Shown one piece after another: positions 2,611 through 26,578 of a stretch of DNA of 33,672 nt. The notes beneath the pieces were generated by a model that saw nothing but the letters and a program-made list of their open reading frames with translations, did no database searches and had not been told where the DNA came from. The position numbers and the translations under genes are program-made. The number at the start of each line of letters is the position of its first letter. The first letter of the stretch is position 1. The stretch comes from a virus, in the UHGV virus genome UHGV-2170543; one strand, given 5' to 3'.

Positions 2611-3144
2611 TTATCTGTCGATACCCCAGCACGCCAGCGCGCTCTCCTGGTCACGACGGGATACCTGACCGTAACAGTTGTTTGAACGAATACGGCAGTC
2701 TCTGCCACCGTCCTTAATCCACCAGCGAATCGCTTCGCAGGCACCTTTTCGATCACCAGCATTAATTCGTCTGTAAAACGTCGACGGGAAACACTTACCG
2801 GGACCAATGTTGTACGGACAGAATGACGCGATCCCCGCTTTCTGGGGTTCGGTCAATGGCACTTTGATGTTTTTCTCCACCCATGCCAGCGCCTTATCAC
2901 GCTCAATGGCGTTAACCCGGTCGCATTTTTCCTTCGACAACTTCATGCCCGGAACGACAGGTTTGCCATCCACCAGGATGGCACCGCGGCAGATGGTCCA
3001 GATACCCGCGCCATCACGGTATGCCGTGGTGTGGTTACCTTCCTTTTCATCCAGAAACTGGTCGAGAATGTCAGGCGCAGGCGCACCAGCGGCAATCAGC
3101 GCCAGAACGGCAGCCGACAGGCCGTATTTGATTTTGGTGTTCAT
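2611..3144 (-). CDS. R: SAR-type endolysin (T4-lysozyme-like GH24 with N-terminal signal-anchor)
   Basis: N-terminal hydrophobic MNTKIKYGLSAAVLALIAAGAPA, then EGNHTTAYRDGAGIWTICRG catalytic E-D-T pattern similar to P22 gp19; lies between holin and Rz. Confidence 0.8.
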   Translation of the reverse strand: MNTKIKYGLSAAVLALIAAGAPAPDILDQFLDEKEGNHTTAYRDGAGIWTICRGAILVDGKPVVPGMKLSKEKCDRVNAIERDKALAWVEKNIKVPLTEPQKAGIASFCPYNIGPGKCFPSTFYRRINAGDRKGACEAIRWWIKDGGRDCRIRSNNCYGQVSRRDQESALACWGIDR

Positions 3145-3180: not shown

Positions 3181-4061
3181 CTAAATACGCACTTTAAGAT
3201 AAGTCAGCCCCGGATGAAGCCAGTAAGCCGGCACTTTTTTAAAGGGTGGAGTATTAAAATCACGAAGAAGAGCCTCCCGCACAATTGCATCCTTATCAGC
3301 ACCACTGGCCAGCGCTTCAATCTCAGCGGCTACCTGAAGATATCCCATGCAACGGCCAACGCGCTTCATCAGCCCCTGCTTTTTATTGTTCTTCAGGTAA
3401 TCAATGGCAAATTCAATGAGCTCCTCACTGTGCTGGTGCGATGGAGGTGTTACTTTCCCATTTTCTGAGATGGTTATTTTCCCAGCATCACCGGATACAA
3501 CAAAGGATGGCCGGTTACACTCCCATTCCAGCTCACTGAAATTATCATTATGAATACTGAAACACTCTGCGAGATTTCTGCTCATCACTTTCCGACAATA
3601 ATCGTCAAACGCAGCAAACTGCTTTTCATCGCCAGAAGGCACCAATATCGACCATTTCTTATTCAGCTCAACGACGTAGCTCTCCAGTTTTTCAATACGT
3701 GATTCAACATCATCTTTTTCTGACCGCAGTGTTGACGGCGGCATCTTCAGAGAACAAGTAATTCTTCCCGGTAGCTTTCCTTTGTAGGTTATCAACACAT
3801 CCTGCGCCTCTAAAATTACGGGGCGCTTTTCCGNNNNNNNNNNNNNNNNNNNNNNNNNNNNTCCATGAAAAACTGCTTCGCCTGCTTTTTCGCCTCAGCT
3901 TCGTAAAACTCCAGCGTGGCACCTTCAGTACGGTCAAGACTAATCGCCACATTTGGCAACAACAGTGACGGATACCCACCAATTTCCAGTACCACAGTAA
4001 CAGTAATCTTATCCGGGTAATTATTTATCCCTTTAACAACCAGTTCGTATTTTTTCTTCAT
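3181..4061 (-). CDS. hypothetical late protein between S and R with a copy-specific about 180-aa C-terminal extension; interrupted by assembly gap
   Basis: N-terminal MKKKYELVVKGINNY... matches copy B gene 33208-33561; after the gap the frame continues ITYKGKLPGRITCSLKMPPSTLRSEKDD... to 3181, whereas copy B stops at ...SLKTPPESQP; frame across the N-run not verifiable. Confidence 0.4.
3834..3861. other. assembly gap (N run, 28 nt) inside S-R intergenic gene
   Basis: Run of n characters; length does not match copy B (about 38-39 nt expected). Confidence 1.
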
Positions 4062-4065
4062 CGCT

Positions 4066-4278
4066 TTACTCTCCCCGCGCCGCCTTACGCCGGTCCTCTC
4101 TGATTTTGAAATACAGGTTAGTCAGGTACGTCAGCAGCCCAAACAGCAGACTCCCCAGCACGCCTATTGCCGCCCACTGAGACGGGGAAACCCTGTCCAG
4201 CAACTGCNNNNNNNNNNNNNNNNNNNNCGCTGACGTGGTGTATGACACACCTGTTGTGATTTTTTCCATCTGGTACAT
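4066..4278 (-). CDS. S: class II holin / pinholin (S21-like)
   Basis: [17 protein letters not shown]...[46 protein letters not shown]; two TM segments; contains N run 4208-4227. Confidence 0.8.
4208..4227. other. assembly gap (N run, 20 nt) inside holin gene
   Basis: Run of n characters. Confidence 1.
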
Positions 4279-4354
4279 ACCCCGTCTCCCGTTATCCGGA
4301 AGCTCACAACAATATAAAGACCACCGGCACACACCGATGGTCCCTTGCGCAGGC

Positions 4355-4600
4355 TTACATCATCATGTCGCTGTCAGGTGTGGGTTCACCGCCATCTGAA
4401 GCACTCCCGTCACCCGCGATACCTTCCGGCTCCGGAACCGCTGGTACGCCCAGCAGCTCATCCAGAATGGCATCCACTTCTGCATCAAGACGCGCCTCAA
4501 GGTTCTGGCGGAGTTTCTGTTTCAGTGCGCTCAGGACTTCTTCAGAGCGCAGGACTTCCTTCACTGCCTCAGCAGTGACCAGGGATGTGATTTCTGACAT
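4355..4600 (-). CDS. hypothetical acidic protein
   Basis: MSEITSLVTAEAVKEVLRSEEVLSALKQKLRQNLEARLDAEVDAILDELLG... acidic C-terminal tail; weak RBS; present only in copy A between nanS-p and S. Confidence 0.3.
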   Translation of the reverse strand: MSEITSLVTAEAVKEVLRSEEVLSALKQKLRQNLEARLDAEVDAILDELLGVPAVPEPEGIAGDGSASDGGEPTPDSDMMM

Positions 4601-4637
4601 GGGATTTTCTCGTTGAAAGGTGTTGTCAAGAAAGTGA

Positions 4638-4820
4638 CTACGGAATGAGCGGATCTTCGGGTTTGCTTCCGGCTGACTGACTGGCGCTGATTCTCTCAGC
4701 GGCCCTTTTATCAATCTGCCTGCGCCAGAAATCGCGCACTGCCCTGTACCCACCCGAAAGAAGATACATAACACAGACTGCCGTACAGAAGTACAGCATC
4801 ACCTGATGAATAAATGTCAT
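4638..4820 (-). CDS. small single-TM membrane protein
   Basis: MTFIHQVMLYFCTAVCVMYLLSGGYRAVRDFWRRQ...; only in copy A upstream of holin. Confidence 0.25.
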   Translation of the reverse strand: MTFIHQVMLYFCTAVCVMYLLSGGYRAVRDFWRRQIDKRAAERISASQSAGSKPEDPLIP

Positions 4821-4956
4821 AATTTCTTACCGTTATGGTTGACAATGAGAACTGTTTTCATTTAAAAAACCGATATACGAAAGCATCTTTTCTTTACATT
4901 CTCCATTGGGATTACCTCCGCCAGCTTCCATTCCTGCCGCTGGCGGCCTTTTTTTA

Positions 4957-6918
4957 TCATGCCGCGGCATCCGCGTTGTTCACTTCCACCTTCACACTGT
5001 CAATCAGCAGCGTATATGTCGCCGCCTTTGATATGCCTGTCAGTTGCAGTTTGTCCGCCGCCCCTGATGCCGGAGATTTCACCAGTGTGAACGGCGTCCC
5101 CCGTTTCTCATCCAGTACCGGCGTCACCTGAATGCTGTTGTTTCCGGCAAACTCAAAAGCCAGTGTGTGCCATCCGTTATCAAAGACCCCGAACGTATCC
5201 AGCTTCGCATTCGGCTTCTTGTGGTGCATCGCGTTCAGGTTCGTCGCATCCGTCTGCAGGAAGAAGGACATCAGCATGTCGTTGCCTTCCTCTGCCAGCG
5301 TCACTCCCTCCGGCAGGGACGACAACTGCCAGTAAATGCCCAGGGCAAACTGATTCGGCACCAGTGAACCCGGCAACTTAAACCGTACGCTCACACGTCC
5401 TCCTTTCTTCAGCAACTCTGCCCCCTGCCCGGCTGCATCATGCTCCAGAAACCAGATGTGGTTTTCCGGTTTATTCAGTTGCAGGGCCTTACCTCCCGTA
5501 GCCCCCGCATCACTGACCACCGCTTCAGCAATGTTTTTGTTAACATTGTCTCCGCTCGCCGGTTTGTGATAATAGCGCCAGCCCTGTGATGCCAGGTCTT
5601 CGCCGGACGCCAGCAGACTCATCAGGGTTCGGTTACTGACCGGACCTTCCGGCTCTCTCTCCGTACCTTCACCGGAAGGTCCGGTGGGCTTCACCGTATC
5701 AGGCTGTTTTCCGGTAATGAATTCAGCGGTTCTCCCGGCATGCACAAGAATCGCCGTTGCCAGACGGTCGGAAATAATCCCACGACGTGCCCATGATCCA
5801 AAATGCGTTTTACGGTCAGCCGTCGTCCAGGTTTTGGCGTCCGTTCGACCACCGGCTCCGTAATACCCAATATCCGCAACATCCGGATCTTCTGACGGCT
5901 CGTTGGTACCCACATTTCGCCCGTTTTCATCCGTCATAAACGGCACAAAGAAGATTTTTTTTGCGGATTTCGTCTTATATGCACCATACACCGCATCGTA
6001 TTGCGAAGAATAAGTCTGCTTCCAGTAGTAGGTCGTGTCGCCACAAATCCAGGGAACTGATGACGGAGAGCCCCCGAGACACTGACCTCCGAATTCCGAC
6101 AGGTCAGAACGATATTTTTCCACCATGGAATCAAACAGCCCCGGCTGAGTGGCGTATGCACCCTGTTTCAAATCAAACTCGCCCTGCATCCAGACCACTG
6201 CAAGCAGAATATTTTTAGGGTTGGCCTTCAGTGCGGCCTGAGTACGGGTAAGCAGGTCCTTGTACAGTGGCTTATCTACACCCCAGCGTGCCGAGGTCTC
6301 GCTTGCGCCGGTGGATTCGCTGAAGGTACCTTCATCGCCCGCCAAAAATGCAGAACCACCACGGCAGCACGGAACCAGAAGAATACCGGCATTCGCCGGA
6401 ATAAACGGCAACAATTTCTTCGCGATATGTAATCCCTGCCCCACGCATCCATACTGAGCTGCGCTGGCTTTCGGGTGTGAAAACTTACTCAAATCCTGAA
6501 CATCATGCAGGCAGTGGTCCGCAGGAATAATGTCATTGTAGTTACAGGACGCACCACCCGGCGTGACAGTGCTGCGACGCGCCAGCTGTTTAATACGCGG
6601 GTCCGGACGGTCATATGTCTCCGGCAGCGGAAGCCCTTCACCATACGCCATACCGTTTGACTGCCCGGCCAGGGCAACAACAAAGTAATACTCCGGGTTG
6701 CTGGTAGTGCTGATAACTGCGCCTTCTCCATCCGACGGCTTCACCACCACAGGTGTGGTGACATCACCTTCCGCCGCAATGGCCTGCATCAGGGTATAAG
6801 GCGTGATGGCCACCGGACTGCCAAATGGCTGCCACCCCTCCTTCAGTTTTTGTGTCAGTCGTTTCGCAAGGTCTGACGGCGATGCCGCCCTGACCACGTC
6901 ATAGTGTTTAAATGCCAT
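4957..6918 (-). CDS. nanS-p: NanS-p-like 9-O-acetyl-sialate esterase (DUF1737 N-terminus + SASA/SGNH domain), copy A
   Basis: 653 aa; N-terminal MAFKHYDVVRAASPSDLAKRLTQKLKEGWQPFG; GQSN SGNH-hydrolase motif (VVALAGQSNGMAYGEG); located downstream of phage tRNA cluster as in Stx-type phages. Confidence 0.8.
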   Translation of the reverse strand: MAFKHYDVVRAASPSDLAKRLTQKLKEGWQPFGSPVAITPYTLMQAIAAEGDVTTPVVVKPSDGEGAVISTTSNPEYYFVVALAGQSNGMAYGEGLPLPETYDRPDPRIKQLARRSTVTPGGASCNYNDIIPADHCLHDVQDLSKFSHPKASAAQYGCVGQGLHIAKKLLPFIPANAGILLVPCCRGGSAFLAGDEGTFSESTGASETSARWGVDKPLYKDLLTRTQAALKANPKNILLAVVWMQGEFDLKQGAYATQPGLFDSMVEKYRSDLSEFGGQCLGGSPSSVPWICGDTTYYWKQTYSSQYDAVYGAYKTKSAKKIFFVPFMTDENGRNVGTNEPSEDPDVADIGYYGAGGRTDAKTWTTADRKTHFGSWARRGIISDRLATAILVHAGRTAEFITGKQPDTVKPTGPSGEGTEREPEGPVSNRTLMSLLASGEDLASQGWRYYHKPASGDNVNKNIAEAVVSDAGATGGKALQLNKPENHIWFLEHDAAGQGAELLKKGGRVSVRFKLPGSLVPNQFALGIYWQLSSLPEGVTLAEEGNDMLMSFFLQTDATNLNAMHHKKPNAKLDTFGVFDNGWHTLAFEFAGNNSIQVTPVLDEKRGTPFTLVKSPASGAADKLQLTGISKAATYTLLIDSVKVEVNNADAAA

Positions 6919-7371
6919 GAATCCTCCCGGCCGGGATAATATTGTGAGTAAAATAAGGAGCGGGCTGAAGTCCGGAAGTTACAGGACAATGGCAGAAGAG
7001 AGACGACAGCCCGCAATTCGAAAAAGACCGCGCAGTTGCGCAGCCTTATGAATTCTGGTTAAAATCCATTCGATTATAAAAATGTATATCTCATGCTGTT
7101 GCCCGAACCCACTCGGGCTTTTTTTTGCCCACAAGAAAGCCCCTCCGGAGAGGGGCTAAAGCCGCGTATCTGTATCATCATGCACATGATGCCGGGTGCC
7201 TCCCGGTGAGTTCAGTATCAGCACCTGAACCCGCACAGAAAGGATAAGGGTCGGTGACAAAACACCAGTTGCTGATTGCCCCTCCGCACAGGGGGATTCA
7301 CCATGCCAGTTTCTTTTAACAAACTCCCCGCAAAACAGACAACTGTCAACCGTCTGAATTGTGAGACATTT

Positions 7372-7395
7372 AAAAAAAAGCCCGCAAAAGCGAGC
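7372..7395 (-). terminator. hairpin + U-tract terminator downstream of tRNA cluster (copy A)
   Basis: Minus-sense GCTCGC-TTTT-GCGGGC followed by TTTTTTTT. Confidence 0.45.
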
Positions 7396-7410
7396 CGGGA
7401 AAAATAAGTC

Positions 7411-7487
7411 TGGCGCGTTGTACTGGATTCGAACCAGTGACCGATTGCTTAGAAGGCAATTGCTCTGTCCGGCTGAGCTAATAACGC
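7411..7487 (-). tRNA. tRNA-Arg (anticodon UCU), argN/argO-like phage tRNA
   Basis: Cloverleaf read by hand: acceptor GCGTTAT/ACAACGC (one mismatch), anticodon loop CTTCTAA, T-loop TTCGAAT, 3' CCA. Confidence 0.85.
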
Positions 7488-7500
7488 AGGGTACAGATAA

Positions 7501-7577
7501 TGGACCGCCATCGAGGACTCGAACCCCGCGCAACCAGCTTCGAAGGCTGGCGCTCTATCCTGATGAGCTAATGGCGG
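7501..7577 (-). tRNA. tRNA-Arg (anticodon UCG), phage tRNA
   Basis: Acceptor CCGCCAT/ATGGCGG, D-stem GCTC/GAGC, anticodon loop CTTCGAA, T-loop TTCGAGT with A58, 3' CCA. Confidence 0.85.
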
Positions 7578-7584
7578 TATGTGA

Positions 7585-7660
7585 TGGTGGCCCTTGCTGG
7601 ATTTGAACCAGCGACCTGGCGATTATGAATCGCTCGCTCTCACCACTGAGCTAAAGGGCC
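7585..7660 (-). tRNA. tRNA-Ile2 (anticodon CAU, lysidine type), ileZ-like phage tRNA
   Basis: Near-identical to E. coli ileX-type sequence as recalled; acceptor GGCCCTT/AAGGGCC, anticodon loop TTCATAA, T-loop TTCAAAT, CCA. Confidence 0.9.
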
Positions 7661-7688
7661 GAGCCAAAAAATAATAATCAGATGAAAA

Positions 7689-8402
7689 TCAATAATCAAG
7701 CCCTTGCCTGGATACATATCTGTCTGGCGGGAAGCCATAATAGCGGTGAAATACAGAAATAAAGTAGGACCTGCTTGAATAACCGCATTTTTCTGCTATA
7801 GCCTGTCCATATCCATGCCGGGAACATAACATATTTACAGCAACACGCATCCGCTCTTCCAGCAACAAGCGACTGAACATGCCCCCTTCATTTTTCAGTT
7901 TTGTCTTTAACAAACTCTCACTCATATGCAACTGTAGAGCAATCGCACCAAGCGTCCAGCTTGCTGATATATCTGTCTGAATTATCGCCCTGACTTTGGC
8001 ACTTATGCTGGATAAACATCCACTTAAAAACAATGACATCCGTTCATCTGTTTCAAACAGAGACAGGCAGGCCATCATAAGAAACATATCCGTGGCCTCT
8101 CCGGAAAATCCCTGGCTGGTAATTAAAGCCGCAGCCAACGCAGGATTGTTGGGTTCCAGCAACAGGTAAAGCGGAATGTCAGTCAGACGAGTCCTCGTCA
8201 GCTTATGCTGACTTTCCAGATATTGACTTACGACGGATTCGCTTATATCGACAATTTTAACTTTGCCATAATGCATAAGGAAAAGCTCCCTGATGCATTT
8301 GGTGGCCAGAACAACTGAGCCTGGCTTAAGTGACAACGTATCCTTTTCAAGAAAAATATTAATTGGGGAGCAAACCATGATAACTGAACAGACAACAGCC
8401 AT
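7689..8402 (-). CDS. AraC-family transcriptional regulator (prophage-encoded)
   Basis: C-terminal AraC-type double HTH (ISASWTLGAIALQLHMSESLLKTKLK...RHGYGQAIAEKCGYSSRSYFISVFHRYYGFPP); start codon uncertain (8402 or 8378). Confidence 0.7.
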   Translation of the reverse strand: MAVVCSVIMVCSPINIFLEKDTLSLKPGSVVLATKCIRELFLMHYGKVKIVDISESVVSQYLESQHKLTRTRLTDIPLYLLLEPNNPALAAALITSQGFSGEATDMFLMMACLSLFETDERMSLFLSGCLSSISAKVRAIIQTDISASWTLGAIALQLHMSESLLKTKLKNEGGMFSRLLLEERMRVAVNMLCSRHGYGQAIAEKCGYSSRSYFISVFHRYYGFPPDRYVSRQGLDY

Positions 8403-8524
8403 TATAATTTTACTTTCATTAGCAATTGGTTAGCTCAATTATAGCCCCAAAAGGTAAATTATCATCAACACATAAGCAAAGGACTGACAGGTGTCGCCCC
8501 CCCACCAGCCGCCCATTCACCACA

Positions 8525-8550
8525 AATAAAAAGCCTTCAGGACTGAAGGC
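8525..8550 (-). terminator. hairpin + U-tract terminator overlapping stop of small gene
   Basis: Minus-sense GCCTTCA-GTCC-TGAAGGC followed by TTTTTATTT. Confidence 0.4.
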
Positions 8551-16932: not shown

Positions 16933-17558
16933 GCGTTAGTTTCTCCACAACCAGAAGCAATCGACGCCACGACGCCCGGAGCTGCACACTCGCGGGCGTT
17001 ACTCTTTTCCGGCGCACAAAAAACACGAAATAACAGTGTTAAATGCTCCTGCCACTTCGCCATTACTTGGTAGCTGTTCTCTTCGATTTGCTCACGCTCA
17101 GCCTGGTCAATAACTCCATCAGCAGTTGCCTTGCGTAAGTACTGGGAATGCTTGCCAATCCATTCTATTGACTCCATCAGCCGCTGATTAATGTCACCAT
17201 TGTCAATGTCATCAATGACCACCAGCGGCACAAACACCCCATTACTACGACGGGCTATTGCATCCGTTACATGCCTGGTACCACTGGCATCCTGTAAAAC
17301 CATGGCCCACTCAAGTGGAAAAATTTGATCCCCACCGCTACGCAGTCTGTTATGCAATTGATCTTTTGCTGGGGTGATATCATCAGATTTATACAAACCA
17401 AGAATTTCTGCTGCTTCCTCATAGCCATGAGGTAAATCAGCAATCGTTCTTCGTATTGCTGCCACCAGCCATGCTGGTTGCTTATCAACTTTCCATTCAG
17501 GTTCTTTACCCACGTTTAAGCCCTCATATCTGTGGTTTCTGTAAATCGATTTATCCAT
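16929..17558 (-). CDS. hypothetical early protein in cII position (YdaT-like?)
   Basis: About 209 aa from MDKSIYRNH...; directly follows cro; family uncertain. Confidence 0.5.
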
Positions 17559-17751
17559 TAGATTTTTCATAAAGCTCAGGTTTAAATGGCAACCGTCCGC
17601 AAGTTCTATATGCAGCCTCTGCTGCACGTCCTTTTGGAATTAACTGGCCAGGACGGTTTCGCCACTGATAAACGGCTTCAGTTGTTATGCCGAAAAAAGC
17701 AGCAACTTTCTCAATGCTGCCGAAGTAGCTTTCGATATCGTCAGTCGTCAT
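17551..17751 (-). CDS. cro: Cro-like HTH regulator
   Basis: 66 aa; FGSIEKVAAFFGITTEAVYQWRNR HTH; divergent from CI-like repressor. Confidence 0.7.
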   Translation of the reverse strand: MTTDDIESYFGSIEKVAAFFGITTEAVYQWRNRPGQLIPKGRAAEAAYRTCGRLPFKPELYEKSNG

Positions 17752-17848
17752 ATGCCCTCCAAACTAAGTTTTATTAGATGTTAATTATCAATCTATCTTA
17801 GGTCAATAAAAACTAAGATTACTTAGTAATTAAAGAAATGGTGCTCCT
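17752..17848. promoter_or_regulatory. immunity-region operator/promoter interval (OR/PR/PRM)
   Basis: Inverted half-sites ACTAAG-ATTA-CTTAGT at 17811-17826, further CTAAG/CTTAG copies at 17763 and 17796; minus-strand PR candidate -35 TTGACC (17805-17800), 17-bp spacer, -10 TAACAT (17782-17777). Confidence 0.5.
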
Positions 17849-18475
17849 ATGGAAACGGTTGGTCAGCGTATAAAAGCTCTGAGAAGAGTTACCAGAACGT
17901 CCCAGAAAGAATTGGGTAAATTTTGTGGAGTAAGTGACGTTGCTGTGGGGTACTGGGAGAAAGACATCAATGTCCCTGGTGGGGAAGCACTTTCAAAATT
18001 AGCGAAGTTCTTCAATACGTCAATAGATTACATTCTTTATGGTGCGGAGTTTGAAGGCAAACTCGTCACAAACATGCGCAGAGTTCCTGTAATCTCGTGG
18101 GTTCAGGCTGGGCAGTTTACTGAGTGCAGGACAGCAGAAGTGTTTAGTGAAGTAGACAAGTGGGTAGATACATCATTAAAGATTGGTGATAACTCATTTG
18201 CATTGGAGGTTAAAGGCGACTCCATGACTAACCCTAACGGCCTCCCAACAATACCAGAAGGCGCAACAGTGATTGTAGATCCTGATGCAGAACCCCGGCA
18301 TGGAAAAATAGTCATCGCTAGACTTGATGGAACAAACGAAGCCACAGTAAAAAAATTAGTTATCGATGGCCCTCAAAAGTTTTTAGTGCCATTAAATCCC
18401 CGGTACCCCAACATCCCGATCAATGGTAATTGCCTCATCATTGGTGTAGTCAAAGGAGTTCAATACGAACTCTAG
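17849..18475 (+). CDS. cI: CI-like repressor (XRE-type HTH + S24 LexA-like peptidase domain)
   Basis: N-terminal HTH SQKELGKFCGVSDVAVGYWEKD; C-terminal GDSM serine and KKL lysine of the S24 Ser/Lys dyad. Confidence 0.85.
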   Translation: METVGQRIKALRRVTRTSQKELGKFCGVSDVAVGYWEKDINVPGGEALSKLAKFFNTSIDYILYGAEFEGKLVTNMRRVPVISWVQAGQFTECRTAEVFSEVDKWVDTSLKIGDNSFALEVKGDSMTNPNGLPTIPEGATVIVDPDAEPRHGKIVIARLDGTNEATVKKLVIDGPQKFLVPLNPRYPNIPINGNCLIIGVVKGVQYEL

Positions 18476-18641
18476 CCCCCCCTTTTCTCTAACCAAAACA
18501 CCGAACTAAGAAAAGTTTGGTGTTTTCTCTTGCCATTAAAACTAAGTTAAGTTAGATTTTATATCAAAGATAACGAACAGGCAGGACGCCCACGAAGTAG
18601 CCGCCTGGGGCATATGAAGTCCAGGATGATTCGTTAGTACC

Positions 18642-18668
18642 AAAAAAGCGCCCTACCGGACGCTTCGC
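18642..18668 (-). terminator. candidate terminator downstream of 2-TM gene
   Basis: Minus-sense AAGCGTCC-GGTA-GGGCGCTT (one mismatch) followed by TTTTTT. Confidence 0.35.
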
Positions 18669-18831
18669 TCTTTAAAAATCAGTAACCCTCACTTTGGGCC
18701 TGGATCTGGTGGCCTGGGACGAGGTGGAATATGAAAAGGCTCTATTGGTCGACTCATTATCCAATCCTATTATGTCTCATTTCTTCGGTTTCGGTGGTTT
18801 CGGCTTCGGAGGTACATGTCCGTGAACTGGA

Positions 18832-19326
18832 TTATGCTTGTTGGTCATCATTAATATCCGTTAGTTCATTCTCTAGAGGTAGATCTCCCGCACACCAAGC
18901 TATAAATTTTTCTTTGGTTGTTAAATCGTACTTAGTTGGAACACCAGCAAAAATACAGGCCCGAATGAAAGCCGCTCGTTCAAGTGATTTCCATGGATTA
19001 CTATCAGTATCTTGGATTTTTAAATACCTAGCTTGCAACTGATCTTCAGGAAGGGTATCAGACTCAATCAGCAGTCTTTTGTAATGCCTCGCTTGCTCTT
19101 TAGACATTCCAGCCTCTTGGCCAAACTGATAGACCAACTGAAGAACCGAAAGTACGGCAACAAACAAACCGAAAATAAATAAATTACTGTACGGGGCGAA
19201 AACTGAAAAACCGAGAACGATTAACATCAACGTTATTAATTTATCAATGCGAGTTAACAACGTGTAATTCATCTTCTCCAATACATAAGAGTAGTGAACA
19301 TAAAATTTATAATCGTCTCTGGTCAT
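18832..19326 (-). CDS. 2-TM membrane protein in the rex-like slot adjacent to cI
   Basis: 164 aa; two hydrophobic helices (LITLMLIVLGFSVFAPY, LFIFGLFVAVLSVLQLVY) then charged cytoplasmic domain; AT-rich; convergent with cI. Confidence 0.55.
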   Translation of the reverse strand: MTRDDYKFYVHYSYVLEKMNYTLLTRIDKLITLMLIVLGFSVFAPYSNLFIFGLFVAVLSVLQLVYQFGQEAGMSKEQARHYKRLLIESDTLPEDQLQARYLKIQDTDSNPWKSLERAAFIRACIFAGVPTKYDLTTKEKFIAWCAGDLPLENELTDINDDQQA

Positions 19327-19711
19327 ATTAGTCTCAGTTTTCCTTGGGTGGTTTTGGAGGAACTGGAGGCTTTTGTCTTAACGGCACATGCCTCTCCTCA
19401 TACTTATCTACACATAGATCCATATAAATCCTTATCGTTGTTGGGGAGGGTTACATAATAACCAAATCCTTGTTGTTGGGGAATAACCAGGTCCACCTCG
19501 CCTGATGTGGCTAAAAGCAGGCACATAACAGCTAAGTATTTTCAACCAGAGAGAATCCTTAGCGTTGTGGTGAATGCGCAGGCTGATGCGCGAAAGACAT
19601 TGCAGCTATTGCGGAAAAGAGCTGTTCGGCGGGGCAATTAAACGCCCGTGAGAGTCTGAAATAACCGCAAGCCGGAGATCAGCACCGGTCACCACAACAG
19701 CCACTGCTTTG

Positions 19712-19757
19712 GCGGTACCAGTTTGTACCCTTGCTTCCGGCTGGTACCGCTCTTTTT
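19712..19757 (+). terminator. strong hairpin terminator in leader of yfdP-like operon
   Basis: Perfect 10-bp stem GCGGTACCAG/CTGGTACCGC with 19-nt loop followed by TCTTTTT. Confidence 0.5.
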
Positions 19758-19894
19758 ACAAAACAGAGAAGAGCATCACCGGACGACGGGCTCATAACCC
19801 AATCCATCCGGGCGGCTGTCACCGCAGGTGTTCTTCTCTGTTTTGTGGAGAAACCAACCGACCTTGCAGGGTCGGTATGATGAGGAGCAGCAAA

Positions 19895-20257
19895 ATGGCT
19901 AGCGTACGCAGTACTGATGTGCAGGTATTTATCGTAGAACTGGACGGCGGCGTATTTGAAACCAAACTCGGCGCAGTTCTCAGTGAAGTCGCTTCCGGTG
20001 TGATGAACACGAAAAACAAAGGTAAAGTCTCGGTCAATCTGGACATCGAACCGTTTGATGAGAACCGTGTGAAAATCAAACACAAACTCTCATATGTTCG
20101 CCCGACTAACCGCGGGAAAATCTCCGAAGAAGACACCACCGAAACGCCGATGTATGTCAATCGAGGTGGTCGCCTGACTATTCTGCAGGAAGACCAGGGA
20201 CAATTACTGACTCTTGCCGGTGAACCTGACGGAAAACTCCGCGCAGCAGGTCGTTAA
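19895..20257 (+). CDS. YfdP-like hypothetical protein
   Basis: 120 aa from MASVRSTDVQVF with GAGGAG RBS; first gene of a block resembling CPS-53 yfdPQRST by order and lengths. Confidence 0.45.
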   Translation: MASVRSTDVQVFIVELDGGVFETKLGAVLSEVASGVMNTKNKGKVSVNLDIEPFDENRVKIKHKLSYVRPTNRGKISEEDTTETPMYVNRGGRLTILQEDQGQLLTLAGEPDGKLRAAGR

Positions 20258-20322
20258 TATCGTTCGTAATAAACTGATTATTTATCTCATCACTGAATAT
20301 CTTTATATAGTGAGGACTTATT

Positions 20323-21147
20323 ATGTCTCAGAACTTAGACGCAACCGCAATTAATCAAATCCATGCCCTTATTTCTGCTCAGGGTGTTAATGAAATTATC
20401 AGTAAGATTGGTGCCGATGCTGTGGCATTGCCTGAGAATTTCCGCATTCATGATCTGGAAAAATTTAATTTAAATCGCTTCCGTTTCCGTGGTGCACTTT
20501 CCACTGCCAGCATCGATGATTTTACCCGTTATTCTAAAGATCTTGCAGATGAAGGCACCCGCTGCTTTATCGATGCCGATAATATGCGTGCCGTCAGTGT
20601 GCTTAACCTGGGTACTATTGATGAGCCAGGTCACGCAGATAACACTGCCACTCTCAAACTGAAAAAGACAGCACCGTTCTCTGCTCTGTTGTCTGTTAAC
20701 GGCGAGCGTAACTCCCAGAAGTCACTGGCAGAATGGATCGAAGACTGGGCCGACTACCTTGTGGGCTTTGATGCTAATGGTGACGCTATTCAGGCAACAA
20801 AAGCGGCTGCGGCAGTCCGTAAAATCACGATTGAAGCAAACCAGACCGCTGATTTTGAAGATAATGACTTCAGCGGCAAACGCTCCCTGATGGAGTCTGT
20901 CGAAGCGAAGACCAAAGACATTATGCCAGTGGCATTTGAATTTAAATGCGTTCCGTTTGAAGGTCTGAAAGAACGTCCGTTTAAATTACGCCTCAGCATT
21001 ATCACTGGCGATCGTCCTGTACTGGTTCTGCGCATTATTCAGCTGGAAGCGGTGCAGGAAGAAATGGCTAACGAATTTCGTGATCTGCTTGTTGAGAAAT
21101 TCAAAGACAGCAAAGTAGAAACCTTTATTGGTACTTTCACCGCCTGA
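20323..21147 (+). CDS. YfdQ-like protein (DUF2303 family)
   Basis: 274 aa; length and position match yfdQ of CPS-53-type prophages as recalled. Confidence 0.6.
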
Positions 21148-21274
21148 TTTCATTACTGCAAATGCCCCTGCGGGGGCATTTATGGAAACGTAATTAACTC
21201 AATAATCACCGGATGGTGAGGGCTTCCTTTTACCAGAATTCAGCGCGGTGCAGTGCATATACGTGGAGAACAAA

Positions 21275-21811
21275 ATGTCATTTATTAAAACTTTTTCCGG
21301 GAAGCATTTTTATTATGACAAGATAAATAAAGACGACATCGATATTAACGATATCGCGGTTTCCCTTTCAAATATCTGTCGCTTTGCCGGTCATCTTTCG
21401 CACTTCTACAGCGTCGCCCAACATGCGGTTCTTTGCAGCCAGCTGGTGCCGCAGGAATTTGCTTTTGAAGCGTTAATGCATGATGCAACAGAAGCGTATT
21501 GCCAGGACATTCCCGCACCACTGAAACGCCTTCTTCCTGACTATAAACGGATGGAAGAAAAAATAGACGCCGTAATCCGTGAGAAATACGGGTTACCCCC
21601 AGTTATGAGTACACCCGTGAAATATGCCGATCTCATCATGCTGGCAACCGAACGCCGCGATCTCGGGCTTGATGATGGCTCTTTCTGGCCTGTACTGGAA
21701 GGCATCCCGGCAACAGAGATGTTCAACGTGATTCCACTGGCACCGGGTCATGCCTACGGGATGTTTATGGAACGTTTTAACGATTTATCGGAGTTACGCA
21801 AATGCGCATGA
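21275..21811 (+). CDS. HD-domain phosphohydrolase (YfdR-like)
   Basis: H...HD metal-binding motif (HLSHFYSVAQHAV ... EALMHDATEAY); start MSFIKTF with GGAGAA RBS. Confidence 0.6.
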   Translation: MSFIKTFSGKHFYYDKINKDDIDINDIAVSLSNICRFAGHLSHFYSVAQHAVLCSQLVPQEFAFEALMHDATEAYCQDIPAPLKRLLPDYKRMEEKIDAVIREKYGLPPVMSTPVKYADLIMLATERRDLGLDDGSFWPVLEGIPATEMFNVIPLAPGHAYGMFMERFNDLSELRKCA

Positions 21812-22164
21812 ATGTTTTCGAAATGGAAGGGTTTCTTCGCGGGAAATGTGTACCGCGAGATCTGAAAGTGAATGAAACAAATGCTGAGTACCTGTTACGT
21901 AAATTCGACGCGCTTGAAGCTAAATGTGCGGCACTGGAAAACAAAATAATACCAGTGTCAGCTGAACTGCCACCAGCAAATGAAAGTGTTCTGTTATTTG
22001 ATGCTAACGGAGAAGGCTGGCTAATTGGCTGGCGTTCTCTCTGGTACACCTGGGGACAAAAAGAAACCGGAGAATGGCTGTGGACATTTCAGGTCGGGGA
22101 CCTTGAAAACGTCAATATCACTCACTGGGCAGTAATGCCGAAAGCACCGAAGAATAAAAAATGA
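21802..22164 (+). CDS. YfdS-like hypothetical protein
   Basis: 120 aa, overlaps upstream stop; Trp-rich C-terminus. Confidence 0.45.
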   Translation: MRMNVFEMEGFLRGKCVPRDLKVNETNAEYLLRKFDALEAKCAALENKIIPVSAELPPANESVLLFDANGEGWLIGWRSLWYTWGQKETGEWLWTFQVGDLENVNITHWAVMPKAPKNKK

Positions 22165-22364
22165 GCGTGATAAAAACTCATACAGGAATTGTTATCACCC
22201 GAGACGGTCCGCAGGTAAAAAAACTGCACCAGACAAAGCGGATGTGGGTCGTCGGAAAAAACGAGTTTTACCACAAAGAAACCGGACGCCGCCACTTTGC
22301 AGAAAATACTCGCCGCCGACTGCTGATCGATACCATCAAGCCTATCGAGGTGAAGCATGTTTAA
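22161..22364 (+). CDS. small hypothetical protein
   Basis: 67 aa; ATGA-type overlap with upstream gene. Confidence 0.35.
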   Translation: MSVIKTHTGIVITRDGPQVKKLHQTKRMWVVGKNEFYHKETGRRHFAENTRRRLLIDTIKPIEVKHV

Positions 22365-22596
22365 ACAGAACGAAAAATCTATCGCTCAAATTGCTGAGTA
22401 TATCCCGCGTGCGTGCCGGGATATGCAGTTGCAGGAAGCCAAAGCACGCCTGGAGAAAAAAATTGCGCTCTATATCGATGACGGCTGTGATGCCGCCGTT
22501 CTTAACGCGGCGTTCGCGCCAGCTCTTAACAGTCATACGCGAAAGTCTTTTTTTTCGTGCATCGCAGCGCAGATCCGTAAAGGAGGCAACCAGTGA
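22357..22596 (+). CDS. small hypothetical protein
   Basis: 79 aa; operon-style overlap. Confidence 0.35.
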   Translation: MFKQNEKSIAQIAEYIPRACRDMQLQEAKARLEKKIALYIDDGCDAAVLNAAFAPALNSHTRKSFFSCIAAQIRKGGNQ

Positions 22597-23216
22597 GCAA
22601 CATTAACTATCAGGTACTGCGTGAAAAGGCAGAGAAAGCAACTAAAGGAAGCTACATCGTAGGGCATACATCTGTTAACCAACACGGCAATTTAACAGGA
22701 GTTTTTGTTTGTCAAAAATGGAAAGGAGAACCCGGTGGCGTGATTGCGGAACGTCATGTTAACTGCCTGATTGAAACAGATGCTCAGGCTTATGCAAACG
22801 CTGAGTTCATAGCAGAGGCTAACCCGGCTACCGTGCTGGCACTGCTGGATGAACAGGAAAGAAACCAGCAATACATCAAACGCCGCGACCAGGAGAACGA
22901 GGATATTGCGCTAACGGTAGGGAAGCTGCGCGTTGAGCTTGAGGAGACAAAATCAAAACTCAACGAGCAGCGCGAGTATTATGAGGGAGTTATCTCTGAT
23001 GGGTGCAAGCGTATTGCTGAACTGGAAGCGCGGGAAGTTCAATTACCGACTCGCTACGACCTTCGATATGGACACCCGATAAATGCAGATGAGCGACATG
23101 TCATGATACCTAAAGAAAATGGCAGTTGGCTTTACCTGATTGACCTGGAACACGCATTACGCGTCGCTGGCATTCGCATCAAAGGAGAGGAGCATGGAAA
23201 TAAAACCAGAGGATGA
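22593..23216 (+). CDS. Ea22-like family protein
   Basis: 207 aa; coiled-coil central region; resembles ead/Ea22-like prophage proteins as recalled. Confidence 0.45.
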   Translation: MSNINYQVLREKAEKATKGSYIVGHTSVNQHGNLTGVFVCQKWKGEPGGVIAERHVNCLIETDAQAYANAEFIAEANPATVLALLDEQERNQQYIKRRDQENEDIALTVGKLRVELEETKSKLNEQREYYEGVISDGCKRIAELEAREVQLPTRYDLRYGHPINADERHVMIPKENGSWLYLIDLEHALRVAGIRIKGEEHGNKTRG

Positions 23217-23550
23217 GTTAAGCAATATCGTTTTATTTCCGGTAAAAGAGGATGACCCTCGTAATCAGGTTAATTTTCTTTATGAGCCATCGGAAAGACC
23301 ATATTGTCATCACGCCTCTGTCCGGGTTGACGAAAAAGAGCGTCAGGTCCGCTGTAAAATCTGCGGTGCAGTTGTGGAACCATTTGACTGGATGCTCTCT
23401 GTGGCGAAAAGAGAAACCAGACTGGCAGATGATGTAAGGCTCTTGCGTCAGGAGGAGCGGGAAAGGCGAAAAAATATAGAAAAGCTAATTCAGATTGAGC
23501 GTAACGCGAAAGCGCGGATACGCAGGGCGACAAAATCCAGAACTGAATAA
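23194..23550 (+). CDS. hypothetical protein with C/H zinc-ribbon-like motif
   Basis: MEIKPEDEL start with GGAGAGGAG RBS; PYCHH...CKICG motif; basic C-terminus. Confidence 0.4.
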   Translation: MEIKPEDELSNIVLFPVKEDDPRNQVNFLYEPSERPYCHHASVRVDEKERQVRCKICGAVVEPFDWMLSVAKRETRLADDVRLLRQEERERRKNIEKLIQIERNAKARIRRATKSRTE

Positions 23551-23643
23551 TTAAATTTAGCTCTGTTAAAAATTTAATCCTTAACCGGAGGGATTTCTGC
23601 ACCCTCAGAACATCAGGAGGCCGCCCGAAAGGGCGGTAGTTAA

Positions 23644-23826
23644 ATGCGAAAGTTTAAAATAATTATTGAAACGGGAATAGCCGGTGGAGATTTCGAGGAT
23701 GAATTCGAAGTGGATGATGATGCGACGCCTGATGAAATACATGACGAAGCAAAAGATATTTTCTTTAACTACTGCAATTACTCATATCACGAAATAAAAG
23801 ACGAAGAGGAAGAGCAAAATGGCTGA
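23644..23826 (+). CDS. small acidic hypothetical protein
   Basis: 60 aa ORF. Confidence 0.3.
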   Translation: MRKFKIIIETGIAGGDFEDEFEVDDDATPDEIHDEAKDIFFNYCNYSYHEIKDEEEEQNG

Positions 23827-23995
23827 TTTTGGTTCAACTAAATACAACGTCAGTTTTGAAGCATGGCATGAACTGTTAATGGACTATGCAGAGTTACGTG
23901 GTGGCAGTGCTGCTGATGCTGAAGCATGGCGTGATGATTATGAAGCAGGAAAAACTCCGGTCGAAGCATATTGTGATGAGTGGGGCGATGAATGA
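23819..23995 (+). CDS. small hypothetical protein
   Basis: 58 aa MADFGSTKYNVSFEAWHELLMDY...; overlaps neighbours by start/stop. Confidence 0.3.
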   Translation: MADFGSTKYNVSFEAWHELLMDYAELRGGSAADAEAWRDDYEAGKTPVEAYCDEWGDE

Positions 23996-24306
23996 GCGAG
24001 ATTAATTATCAGGAAGGGCATGAAACGGCAGGGCAGGCAAAACCAGTTGCATGGCGATATCGCTACGTGAAAAAAGGCGTTACGGACTTTCAGGAGAATC
24101 TGTGGGTTGGTGACTGGAAATATGTACCGACAAAAGAGGATTGCAACGACAGGCCGAACTATGAAATTCAGGCCTTATTCGCTGCCCCGCCAGTTCCGGT
24201 GACATCAGAAGAACTGGTTAAAGCTGTGCACTTTTATGAACAACTAAAACGCGAAAATCCACCAGCATCCGGAAACCTGATTACAGATTCCCAGATAAGG
24301 CAATGA
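23992..24306 (+). CDS. hypothetical protein
   Basis: 104 aa ORF, ATGA overlap with upstream. Confidence 0.35.
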   Translation: MSEINYQEGHETAGQAKPVAWRYRYVKKGVTDFQENLWVGDWKYVPTKEDCNDRPNYEIQALFAAPPVPVTSEELVKAVHFYEQLKRENPPASGNLITDSQIRQ

Positions 24307-24476
24307 GCTACCTGGCGCAGAACGGGCTGATAAGTATGGGGAATATTTTGCGATGAATATTTAGACTAAAGAGTTTGTAACGCTATGTAAGTGATTTTTT
24401 CTGGTTTAGATATTTATATGTCCGGCCAAATTGAGGTGTGTTTAAATGTTATTGTACATTGATTGTAGGGGGAATA

Positions 24477-24656
24477 ATGAAAAACGCATTGCAGTTTTTG
24501 TTTGTTGCGTTCTGGTTGTTCGCATCATGTATGCCCATCATCTTCACAGCAAGGTATATGGAAAAAGTTGATGTTTTGATATTAATGTTTGGACATATAA
24601 ATGCCCTTTTTTTAGGGGTGTTCATGGCGGTCATGTGCATTGAATACTGGCGGTAA
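24477..24656 (+). CDS. small 2-TM membrane protein
   Basis: MKNALQFLFVAFWLFASCMPIIF...; AT-rich; GGGGGA RBS. Confidence 0.3.
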   Translation: MKNALQFLFVAFWLFASCMPIIFTARYMEKVDVLILMFGHINALFLGVFMAVMCIEYWR

Positions 24657-24914
24657 ATACAGCGAACGCCATTGGTTTAGTTGGATATTTACTGTGCCGG
24701 ACAAAAACGGTTTGCGGGGAAATCTTAGTTAAGTAGAATGACTGCGGGTGCTTGAGGCTATCTGTCTCAGGCATGAACACCAAAAGGCAGATAGAGAAAA
24801 GCCCCAGTTAACATTACGCGTCCTGCAAGACGCTTAACATTAATCTGAGGCCATATCTATGCGACACATAGAGATTAGCCTCTTACGGACCGAAAGGTCA
24901 AGGAGAAGCAGGCT

Positions 24915-25070
24915 ATGAAGCAGCAAAAGGCGATGTTAATCGCCCTGATCGTCATCTGTTTAACCGTCATAGTGACGGCACTGGTAACGAGGAAAGACCT
25001 CTGCGAGGTACGAATCCGAACCGGCCAGACGGAGGTCGCTGTCTTCACAGCTTACGAACCTGAGGAGTAA
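24915..25070 (+). CDS. hok: Hok/Gef-family type I toxin
   Basis: MKQQKAMLIALIVICLTVIVTALVTRKDLCEVRIRTGQTEVAVFTAYEPEE closely matches the Hok pattern (LTRKSLCEIRYRDG.REVAAF.AYE); short upstream ORF ends in ATGA overlap; palindrome CTATGCGACACATAG upstream. Confidence 0.75.
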   Translation: MKQQKAMLIALIVICLTVIVTALVTRKDLCEVRIRTGQTEVAVFTAYEPEE

Positions 25071-25140
25071 GAGACCAGGCGAGGGGGAAATCCCTCGCCA
25101 CCTCTGATGAGTCAGGCATCCTCAACGCACCCGCACTTAA

Positions 25141-25167
25141 CCCGCTTCGGCGGGTTTTGTTTTTTCC
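25141..25167 (+). terminator. Rho-independent terminator after hok
   Basis: CCCGC-TTCG-GCGGG followed by TTTTGTTTTTT. Confidence 0.55.
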
Positions 25168-25237
25168 TGGCATTCTGGTTTACAATTCGCACGTCAGCCT
25201 GAACACCTGACACCTGCTGCGCCAGCAGAGAAAACAG

Positions 25238-25510
25238 ATGGCGCACAAAACCAAATTTCACAATTCTGATACCGACCTTGCCATCCGGCATGGGCGGCGT
25301 TCACACGCATTTAAAACCGACTGGTACCAACACCCACCATGTACTGAAGAACAGGCCGAATGGCTAATTCATAACTACCGCAGACGCGGATACGAGATTA
25401 AGAAAGCCCTCAGCCTCGATTATCGTCACTGGATAATCTATGTCAGGCTCCCTTATTCCGAACGCTCACCGCGCCCATCCCGCACATTCCAGCAACGCAT
25501 CTGGAGGTAA
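25238..25510 (+). CDS. hypothetical protein
   Basis: 90 aa ORF preceding DUF968 gene. Confidence 0.35.
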   Translation: MAHKTKFHNSDTDLAIRHGRRSHAFKTDWYQHPPCTEEQAEWLIHNYRRRGYEIKKALSLDYRHWIIYVRLPYSERSPRPSRTFQQRIWR

Positions 25511-25511
25511 C

Positions 25512-26566
25512 GTGCGGATATTACTTCGACCTGTTCTGGTACCGGAACTCGGGCTGGTGGTCCTTAGGCCGGGCCGTGAATCCATGCAAGTATTTCATAA
25601 CCCTCGAGTGCTGGTGGAGCCTGAACCGAAAAGCATGCGCGGTCTGCCGTCCGGAGTCGTCCCTGCCGTTCGCCAGCCGCTGGCGGAGGATAAATCATTT
25701 CTGCCATTTTTCAGCGATGAGCGGGTGATTCGTGCTGCTGGCGGCGCTGGGGCACTGTCTGACTGGCTGTTGCGTCATGCCAAATCCTGCCAGTGGCCTC
25801 ATGGTGACTATCATCACAGTGAAATCGTCATACATCGTTACGGTACCGGCGCGATGGTGTTGTGCTGGCACTGCGACAACCAGTTGCGTGACCAGACATC
25901 CGAATCACTCGGGCAACTTGCTCATCAAAACCTGTCAGCATGGATGATTGACGTCATACGCCATGCAATGAATGGCACGCAGGAGCGGGAATTGTCGCTG
26001 GCTGAATTATCCTGGTGGGCGGTCCGCAATCAGGTGGCGGACGCGCTACCGGAAGTGGTATTACGTCGTTCGCTGGGGTTGCGTGCGGAAAAAATCCGCT
26101 CAATGTACCGTGAAAGCGACATCGTACCGGGAGNNNNNNNNNNNNNNNNNNNNNNNNNNNNNNNNNNNNNNNNNNNNNNNNNNNNNNNNNNNNNNNNNNN
26201 NNNNNNNNNNNNNNNNNNCCACAGGAAGAGACGGTGGTCAGCATTGCCGTTGATCCTGAGTCTCCGGAATCTTTCATGAAACGACCTAAACGTCGCCGCT
26301 GGGTTAACGAGAAATACAAACGCTGGGTGAAGACACAGCCGTGTGCGTGTTGTGGTAAGCCAGCCGACGATCCCCATCACCTGATTGGTCATGGTCAGGG
26401 CGGAATGGGGACAAAATCTCACGATATTTTCACGCTACCGCTGTGTCGGGAGCATCACAACGAGCTTCATGCGGATCCTCTGGCGTTCGAAGAAAAGCAT
26501 GGTTCTCAGGTTGATTTAATTTTTCGTTTTCTTGATCACGCCTTTGCAACTGGCGTGCTTGGGTAA
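25512..26566 (+). CDS. DUF968-family nin-region protein, copy B (spans assembly gap)
   Basis: GTG start after GGAGG RBS; N- and C-terminal parts paralogous to 10095-11090; interrupted by N run 26134-26218. Confidence 0.55.
26134..26218. other. assembly gap (N run, 85 nt) inside DUF968 gene
   Basis: Run of n characters. Confidence 1.
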
Positions 26567-26578
26567 AAGAGGTGACTG

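What the first reader, a model, noticed from the sequence alone, without database searches (positions are those of the whole stretch)
3181..4061. Gene between holin and endolysin carries a copy-specific in-frame C-terminal extension
Both late modules encode a protein starting M(M)NKKYELVVKGINNY between S and R. In copy B it is 117 aa and stops at ...SLKTPPESQP. In copy A the sequence diverges exactly at that point (CTGAAGACTCCACCGGAA versus CTGAAGATGCCGCCGTCA) and continues in frame for about 180 more residues (MPPSTLRSEKDD...LHPGLTYLKVRI), ending 36 bp before R. This is a polymorphic-protein architecture: a conserved N-terminal module with a swapped C-terminal domain, located in a lysis cassette.
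Basis: seen in the sequence. Interest (0 to 1): 0.5.

Follow-up and report, generated by a model that had tools for sequence, protein, structure and literature searches.

The report
Full-length allele of prophage YdfR gene
The "extension" is real but ordinary: copy A carries the common, full-length two-domain version of a prophage late gene (YdfR/DUF1327 family) and copy B carries a version that has lost its back half, and reference annotation wrongly treats the long form as a broken gene.

Summary
Copy A (3181-4061, minus strand) and copy B (33211-33561) share about 112 codons, then diverge. Copy A stays open for 184 more codons and stops 36 nt before R. The 28-N run breaks the frame as written. 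However, the two N runs that could be checked are shorter than the real sequence (28 N for 38 nt, 20 N for 23 nt), and every relative read through carries an intact 296-codon ORF.

This is not a copy-specific novelty. The extension DNA occurs in 1144 of 5426 complete E. coli genomes, and the 296-aa protein is already catalogued as PHROG 1085 and as NCBI "YdfR family protein".

The C-terminal part has no Pfam family and no significant structural match. It also exists as a stand-alone 185-213 aa gene in the same holin-endolysin slot. Its core evolves under purifying selection (dN/dS 0.15-0.25). Salmonella prophages encode roughly 30%-identical proteins with the same two-domain layout, so the long form is probably ancestral and the 116-aa form a deletion derivative.

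PGAP calls the long allele a truncated pseudogene and leaves about 590 nt unannotated.

Function is unknown. The best lead is that K-12 YdfR's N-terminal 72 residues bind RNase E. The polymorphic-toxin reading is not supported.

The parts
3181..4061 (-). Long (296-codon) allele of the YdfR/DUF1327-family late gene, copy A. The N run 3834-3861 stands for 38 nt in relatives.
   Evidence: Pfam DUF1327 scores 150.6 bits on residues 1-100. PHROG 1085 matches 1-296/296 with E 6e-190.
3862..4061 (-). N-terminal DUF1327 domain, the part before the gap (residues 1-66). It is predicted as three strands plus a long helix, and is 44% identical to K-12 YdfR residues 1-77.
3736..3833 (-). Conserved but predicted-disordered linker (residues about 80-112, PEKRPVILEAQDVLITYKGKLPGRITCSLKMPP). 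This is the last stretch shared with the short allele.
3184..3735 (-). The extension (residues 113-296). It comprises a helical hairpin or coiled coil (about 122-176) and a conserved core (186-296) carrying the motifs H214, MKRxGRCMGxLQxAAEIEA and DFxxPPFKxxPxxWxxPGxxYLKxR. It has no Pfam or NCBIfam family.
4066..4278 (-). Class II holin S, copy A (N run 4208-4227 stands for 23 nt). Its stop codon lies 4 nt upstream of the ydfR-family ATG, and the GGAG ribosome-binding site sits inside the holin 3' end.
2611..3144 (-). Endolysin R (phage lysozyme, 177 aa), copy A. It is a different allele (94.3%) from the one next to the short form in the otherwise near-identical prophage.
33211..33561 (+). 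Short (116 aa) allele, copy B. It consists of DUF1327 plus the linker and ends ...SLKTPPESQP*.
32991..33206 (+). Class II holin S, copy B.
33625..33672 (+). Start of endolysin R, copy B. It runs off the end of the window.

Best explanation
Copy A carries the full-length, two-domain allele of a lambdoid-prophage late gene of the YdfR (DUF1327) family. Copy B carries an allele in which the 585-nt 3' part has been replaced by 72 nt that bring an early stop.

The protein is soluble. It consists of an N-terminal alpha/beta DUF1327 domain, a flexible linker, a helical hairpin and a small conserved C-terminal domain of unknown fold family. Its start codon lies 4 nt after the holin stop, so it is probably made together with holin and endolysin from the late transcript (inferred from position, not measured).

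The holin-endolysin slot is a recombination hot spot. There the two modules occur fused (296 or 329 aa), N-terminal part alone (103-118 aa), C-terminal part alone (185 aa), or split in reverse order (213 aa followed by 75 aa).

Mechanism (inferred, not shown): the N-terminal domain docks on the catalytic half of host RNase E and possibly on RNA, as reported for K-12 YdfR. In the full-length form the coiled coil and C-terminal domain would add a second, separately selectable activity or partner. The protein would then act as a late-phase modulator of host RNA turnover rather than as part of the lysis machinery itself.
For: Intact ORF in relatives: the 296-codon ORF is intact in SCU-204 and in 30 of 30 untruncated IMG/VR loci. 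ATCC 25922 aligns without indels across the same 1254-nt stretch.

Prevalence: 518 complete genomes hold at least 80% of the 1241-nt S-to-R query, and 607 hold at least 80% of the extension.

Cataloguing: PHROG 1085 matches end to end.

Selection on the core: dN/dS is 0.15-0.25 in fused-versus-fused and fused-versus-stand-alone comparisons. Variable sites fall 20/16/43 by codon position and all antisense frames are closed.

Cross-genus architecture: Salmonella homologues of 250-340 aa align over residues 20-296 (31% identity, E 3e-26). An N-domain-only profile-profile comparison gives 92% probability and E 5.7e-7. These genes sit in the late operon next to the holin.

Mosaic mapping.

Localisation: no transmembrane segment.

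RNase E lead: PMC13232886 reports that YdfR residues 1-72 bind the RNase E N-terminal domain in two-hybrid and pull-down assays, and that RNA co-purifies. The window N-domain is 44% identical to K-12 YdfR over residues 1-77. The same essQ-ydfR-rrrQ gene order is seen in K-12.
Against: The frame across the N run cannot be read in this window. PGAP treats the long allele as a pseudogene.

Within the 296-aa allele group there is too little divergence for a dN/dS value of its own.

No fold or family match gives a function for the C-terminal domain. Its structure model is only of moderate confidence (mean pLDDT 63.6).

RNase E binding was shown only for the 103-aa K-12 protein, and overexpressing that protein barely changed the transcriptome. 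That the long form is ancestral is a parsimony argument, not a dated phylogeny.
Confidence: 0.8

Rival explanations
1. Decayed gene. The region is a truncated YdfR pseudogene followed by about 590 nt of untranslated remnant, as RefSeq/PGAP annotates it.
For: PGAP flags the first 336 nt as 'incomplete; missing C-terminus' and annotates nothing under the extension.
Against: The ORF is open for 296 codons in every untruncated locus examined. dN/dS on the core is 0.15-0.25, with an excess of third-position changes. The two-domain layout is conserved in Salmonella. The PGAP call follows from a family model built on the short form.
Confidence: 0.06
2. In this particular genome the gap hides a frameshift. 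The N-terminal part would then terminate early, and the extension would be a separate gene read from the ATG at the junction (M110, 3742-3744) or the GTG at 3798.
For: With the literal 28 N the frames differ. An ATG sits exactly at the junction. The C-terminal module can function as a stand-alone gene elsewhere.
Against: N-run lengths are demonstrably unreliable here, including the run in the conserved holin. There is no Shine-Dalgarno-like sequence ahead of that ATG (CTCTGAAGATG). Other fused alleles have T or S instead of M at that position. Stand-alone versions all use the start right after the holin.
Confidence: 0.07
3. Lysis-timing regulator. The protein modulates the pinholin or the SAR endolysin, acting like an antiholin or accessory lysis protein, and long versus short alleles would tune lysis time.
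For: It sits between S and R with its start 4 nt after the S stop. The Salmonella homologues also lie next to the holin. PMC13232886 cites a genetic screen linking ydfR to cell-envelope integrity.
Against: There is no transmembrane segment or periplasmic signal and no similarity to any known lysis regulator. Many cassettes lack one module or the other without losing S, R or Rz.
Confidence: 0.2
4. Polymorphic toxin or effector. A conserved N-terminal delivery module would carry interchangeable toxic C-terminal tips.
For: The N-terminus is conserved while the C-terminal length varies.
Against: The C-termini are one homologous module, present, truncated or absent. There are no toxin, secretion or immunity components: Pfam, NCBIfam, PADLOC and PDB give nothing. 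Only 36 nt separate the stop from R.
Confidence: 0.03

Closest known systems
YdfR of the E. coli K-12 Qin cryptic prophage (Pfam PF07041, DUF1327; NCBI 'YdfR family protein')
   Same: The N-terminal domain is homologous: 44% identity over residues 1-77 with E 2e-20, and Pfam scores 150.6 bits. The gene occupies the same slot between a class II holin and the lysozyme, as in essQ-ydfR-rrrQ.
   Different: K-12 YdfR is 103 aa and has a single domain. The window protein adds a linker, a coiled coil and a 110-aa conserved C-terminal domain that no family model describes.
PHROG 1085 (296-aa phage protein family, unknown function), with related PHROGs 2091 (183 aa) and 406 (114 aa)
   Same: The match is end to end, 1-296/296 with E 6e-190. 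The shorter PHROGs correspond to the truncated alleles.
   Different: None at the sequence level. The PHROG carries no function and does not record that the three families are length variants of one gene.
Salmonella enterica prophage 'hypothetical proteins' of 250-340 aa (for example P0290, P0313)
   Same: They have the same order of DUF1327-like N-domain, coiled coil and C-terminal core with the GR[CSA]MGLLQVAAEIEA and DNPPFK..W..PG..YLK.R motifs. They are late-operon genes lying beside the lysis genes.
   Different: They share only about 30% identity. They lie upstream of the holin (after Q and HicAB) rather than between holin and endolysin.
Phage proteins that bind host RNase E (T4 Srd, phiKZ Dip). 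This is a functional analogy recalled from the literature, not tested here.
   Same: Each is a phage-encoded small protein that contacts RNase E. For YdfR the contact is with the catalytic N-terminal half (PMC13232886).
   Different: No sequence or fold relation was tested or found. No effect on RNase E activity has been shown for YdfR.

Membership tests
DUF1327 / YdfR family (PF07041) | Match to the Pfam model above the gathering score | tested here: met
   150.6 bits against a cut-off of 25, residues 1-100 (long allele). 140.8 bits for copy B.
DUF1327 / YdfR family (PF07041) | Position between a class II holin and the phage lysozyme, as for K-12 essQ-ydfR-rrrQ | tested here: met
DUF1327 / YdfR family (PF07041) | Single-domain protein of about 100-117 aa (the form on which the annotation models rest) | tested here: not met
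   Copy A is 296 aa with a second conserved domain. PGAP therefore calls it incomplete.
PHROG 1085 | Full-length profile match | tested here: met
   1-296 of 296, E 6.1e-190
Polymorphic toxin systems (Rhs, CDI, LXG type) | A repertoire of unrelated C-terminal toxin domains on a conserved N-terminal module | tested here: not met
   The C-termini are one homologous module, full, truncated or absent. Rare exceptions look like deletion fusions to neighbouring genes, such as P0164 joined to an ANT fragment.
Polymorphic toxin systems (Rhs, CDI, LXG type) | Recognisable toxin or secretion domain and a cognate immunity gene immediately downstream | tested here: not met
   No Pfam, NCBIfam, PADLOC or PDB match. 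Only 36 nt separate the stop from R.
Holin/antiholin-type lysis regulators | A membrane-spanning or periplasmic segment that allows interaction with the holin in the membrane | tested here: not met
   The maximum 19-residue Kyte-Doolittle hydropathy is 1.3, so no transmembrane segment is indicated.
Anti-phage defence systems (PADLOC-DB) | Match to any defence-system protein model | tested here: not met
   Best E-value 0.03-0.04, which is noise.
RNase E-binding phage proteins (functional class) | Physical binding to RNase E and an effect on RNA decay | not testable with these tools
   Binding is shown only for the K-12 homologue in PMC13232886. The window N-domain is 44% identical to it.

The most novel reading that the evidence does not exclude
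The full-length two-domain YdfR protein is a late-phase phage adaptor. Its N-domain tethers it to the catalytic half of host RNase E or to RNA, and the uncharacterised, fold-orphan C-terminal domain delivers a second activity that reprogrammes RNA decay just before lysis. On this reading the widespread short and stand-alone alleles are naturally split halves of one system, and the RefSeq 'pseudogene' calls hide a functional gene in about 10% of E. coli genomes.
Probability: 0.15. Interest if true: 0.55.

Novelty: already known. Interest (0 to 1): 0.25.

Why it matters
The practical value lies mainly in annotation. RefSeq/PGAP labels the long allele as a truncated pseudogene in the two genomes whose annotation was read. 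It lists no feature under the extension in the 11 sampled genomes that match it at 99% identity or more. Yet the ORF is intact, its C-terminal core is under purifying selection, and the two-domain layout is conserved across genera.

The work also defines an uncharacterised C-terminal domain with no Pfam family and no structural neighbour. That domain can now be tested together with the recently reported YdfR-RNase E interaction.

As biology seen in this window, it is ordinary lambdoid mosaicism: two alleles of one accessory late gene in two prophage modules.

Tried and rejected
Searches on the extension that gave nothing:
- Pfam and NCBIfam.
- PADLOC.
- A PDB sequence-profile search.

Structure:
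- The first AlphaFold model, built on a 38-sequence alignment, was too poor to use (pLDDT 48.6).
- A second model, built on 82 sequences including the Salmonella homologues, was usable (pLDDT 63.6).
- Weak top hits to dsRNA-binding domains (probability 0.1-0.2) were not pursued as evidence.
- The afdb50 library was unavailable.

Other dead ends:
- A 1074-aa HEAT-repeat hit in the profile search (P0258) was judged a low-complexity artefact.
- An antisense gene inside the extension was rejected because all antisense frames are closed.
- Small convergent ORFs downstream of ydfR-like genes in other loci were compared and are not homologous to each other.
- Literature searches for DUF1327 and for Stx-phage lysis cassettes found nothing specific on the long form.

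Full report
**What is in the window**

On the minus strand the gene order is holin S (4066-4278), then a gene starting at ATG 4061 (MKKKYELVVKGINNY...), then endolysin R (2611-3144). The middle gene ends at TAG 3181-3183, 36 nt before the R start.

On the plus strand at the other end of the window the same order recurs. It comprises S (32991-33206), a 116-aa gene (ATG 33211, or GTG 33208, to 33561, ending ...SLKTPPESQP) and the start of R at 33625.

A four-way nucleotide alignment shows the two copies are collinear up to CTGAAGA and unrelated after that.

**Where the breakpoint is**

An E. coli prophage (strain 23CRST038) matches window 3736-23189 at 98.9% but carries the short allele. The match stops exactly at 3736, so the breakpoint falls after codon 112. 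The extension is residues 113-296.

Against SCU-204, which carries the same long allele, copy B lacks 585 nt and has 72 unrelated nt in their place.

**The N run**

As written, the 28 N at 3834-3861 put the two halves of the gene in different frames. The window has three N runs. For the two that lie in regions matched by relatives, exact matching of the flanking 25-mers shows each run is shorter than the sequence it replaces:
- 28 N stand for 38 nt in the ydfR-family gene.
- 20 N stand for 23 invariant nt in the holin.

N-run length therefore carries no information here. With 38 nt the ORF is continuous at 296 codons.

That ORF is intact in SCU-204. ATCC 25922 aligns without indels over the same stretch. 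The ORF is also intact in all 30 IMG/VR loci of this allele that are not cut by a contig end; L014 and L034 are cut. Frame continuity in this particular strain remains formally unverified.

**How common it is**

- 518 of 5426 complete E. coli genomes hold at least 80% of the S-to-R stretch that includes the long allele.
- The extension DNA alone is found in 1144 genomes. 607 of them hold at least 80% of it, and 417 match at 99% identity or more.
- The protein matches PHROG 1085 end to end (E 6e-190). It also appears in NCBI as "YdfR family protein".

It is therefore catalogued, though nothing is known about what it does.

**Annotation problem**

PGAP annotates only the first 336 nt, as "YdfR family protein, incomplete; missing C-terminus", and places no feature over the next roughly 590 nt. 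In the spread sample, every match at 99% identity or more had "none" listed under the extension.

**What the two halves are**

Residues 1-100 match Pfam DUF1327 (150.6 bits). They are 44% identical to K-12 YdfR over residues 1-77. K-12 YdfR occupies the same slot, essQ-ydfR-rrrQ.

The extension matches no Pfam or NCBIfam family. A homology search shows it also exists as a stand-alone gene of 185-222 aa beginning MNHEEMNQRFSRLENEIAELNKKLS. That stand-alone gene sits in the same slot in two arrangements:
- S, the 185-aa gene, R.
- S, the 213-aa gene, a 75-aa DUF1327 remnant, R.

The stand-alone genes use the same start site directly after the holin stop.

DUF1327 proteins fall into length classes of 103, 114-118, 162-183, 259, 268, 287, 296 and 329-333 aa. 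When aligned, they are one series in which the coiled coil and core are complete, truncated or missing. The identical C-terminal part is also joined to strongly divergent N-domain alleles (MTQNYELIVKGIRNF... versus MKKKYELVVKGINNY...).

**Is the extension a real coding region?**

- Nei-Gojobori dN/dS for the core (residues 186-296) is 0.15-0.25 in every comparison: fused versus fused, fused versus stand-alone, and within the 329-aa group.
- Variable sites fall 20/16/43 by codon position, and all three antisense frames are closed in all 29 distinct alleles.
- Within the 296-aa group itself there is too little divergence to measure selection.

**Depth of the architecture**

A profile search of 1.84 billion representative proteins found only 42 relatives. 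The distant ones are Salmonella enterica proteins of 250-340 aa with the same domain order.

- BLASTP of a 296-aa E. coli protein against a 305-aa Salmonella protein aligns residues 20-296 at 31% identity (E 3e-26).
- The N-domains alone are not detectable by BLASTP.
- A profile-profile comparison of the N-domains alone gives 92% probability and E 5.7e-7.
- The Salmonella genes lie in the late operon between Q/HicAB and the holin.

The simplest reading is that the two-domain form is ancestral. On that reading the 116-aa allele of copy B, like K-12 YdfR, is a C-terminal deletion derivative.

**Structure**

With an 82-sequence alignment, AlphaFold gives mean pLDDT 63.6:
- N-domain, residues 1-72: three strands and a long helix, pLDDT 70-90.
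- Residues 73-120: disordered.
- Residues 122-176: helical hairpin.
- Residues 186-296: core of three strands and four helices, pLDDT 70-89 for the first part.

**How it most likely works**

Shown:
- It is a late-operon gene whose start lies 4 nt after the holin stop.
- It is predicted to be soluble, with no transmembrane segment.
- It has two conserved domains that are separable in nature.
- Its core is under purifying selection.

Taken from the literature: K-12 YdfR binds the catalytic N-terminal half of RNase E in two-hybrid and pull-down assays. Residues 1-72 are sufficient, RNA co-purifies, and overexpression has little effect on the transcriptome (PMC13232886).

Inferred: the window protein's N-domain does the same, and the C-terminal domain adds a second partner or activity during late lytic growth. 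I put this mechanism at roughly 0.25. The identification of the gene as the full-length family allele I put at 0.8.

A role in lysis timing is the main functional rival. It is supported only by the gene's position and by an envelope-integrity phenotype cited in that paper.

**Verdict**

The "copy-specific" extension is a common allele. The "swapped domain / polymorphic" reading is only partly right, and the toxin connotation is not supported. The object is already catalogued but uncharacterised.

The useful outputs are a corrected gene model and a defined orphan domain.

Noticed in passing
window 3834-3861, 4208-4227, 26134-26218: There are three N runs. The two that can be checked are shorter than the sequence they replace (28 N for 38 nt, 20 N for 23 nt), so N-run lengths in this window cannot be used to judge reading frames.
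   Followed up: yes
window 3736-23189 and about 23190-33672: Window 3736-23189 is 98.9% identical to a prophage integrated next to mlrA in E. coli 23CRST038. At 23189, inside the ea22-like region, the match ends. Instead of xis/int the window continues into a second phage's DUF968, RusA, Q and late genes. The two late modules therefore point outward from one shared early region. This suggests an inter-prophage recombination or inversion, or an assembly join.
   Followed up: partly
window 27696-28535 and 28532-29275 (+): A eukaryotic-type Ser/Thr protein kinase (Pkinase, E 2e-33) is followed, with a 4-nt overlap, by a PP2C-family phosphatase. The pair lies between the Q antiterminator (26929-27624) and the tRNA cluster of module B.
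   Followed up: no
window 7411-7660 (-) and 29762-30011 (+): Both late modules carry the same tRNA triplet (Met-CAT, Arg-TCG, Arg-TCT) between Q and the SASA/DUF1737 esterase (653 aa at 4957-6918; 617 aa at 30987-32840).
   Followed up: no
L001 3619-4209, L002 3619-4209, and RefSeq hits H59-H69: PGAP leaves about 590 nt unannotated downstream of a 'YdfR family protein, incomplete' pseudogene call in the two genomes whose annotation was read. It lists no feature under the extension in 11 further sampled genomes, although the 296-codon ORF is intact wherever it was read through.
   Followed up: yes
L097 2979-3239, L003 4902-5189, L090 4881-5141, L093 4809-5126 (all antisense): In loci with other ydfR-family alleles, from both E. 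coli and Salmonella, a small ORF (86-105 aa) is called on the opposite strand, overlapping or just downstream of the gene's 3' end. The four examples are not detectably homologous to each other.
   Followed up: partly
window 15099-15703 versus 15977-16566: These are two adjacent diverged paralogues (73.9% nt identity). In the near-identical reference prophage they correspond to two tandem Rha-family regulatory genes.
   Followed up: no
proteins P0121, P0140, P0205, P0207, P0224, P0164 (database hits, not in the window): Several odd DUF1327 gene models turned up. One has an internal duplication of the N-domain (196 aa). Others are holin-DUF1327 fusions (173-187 aa), and one is a DUF1327-ANT fragment fusion (155 aa). 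These are probably frameshifts, deletions or gene-calling artefacts in the same hot spot.
   Followed up: no
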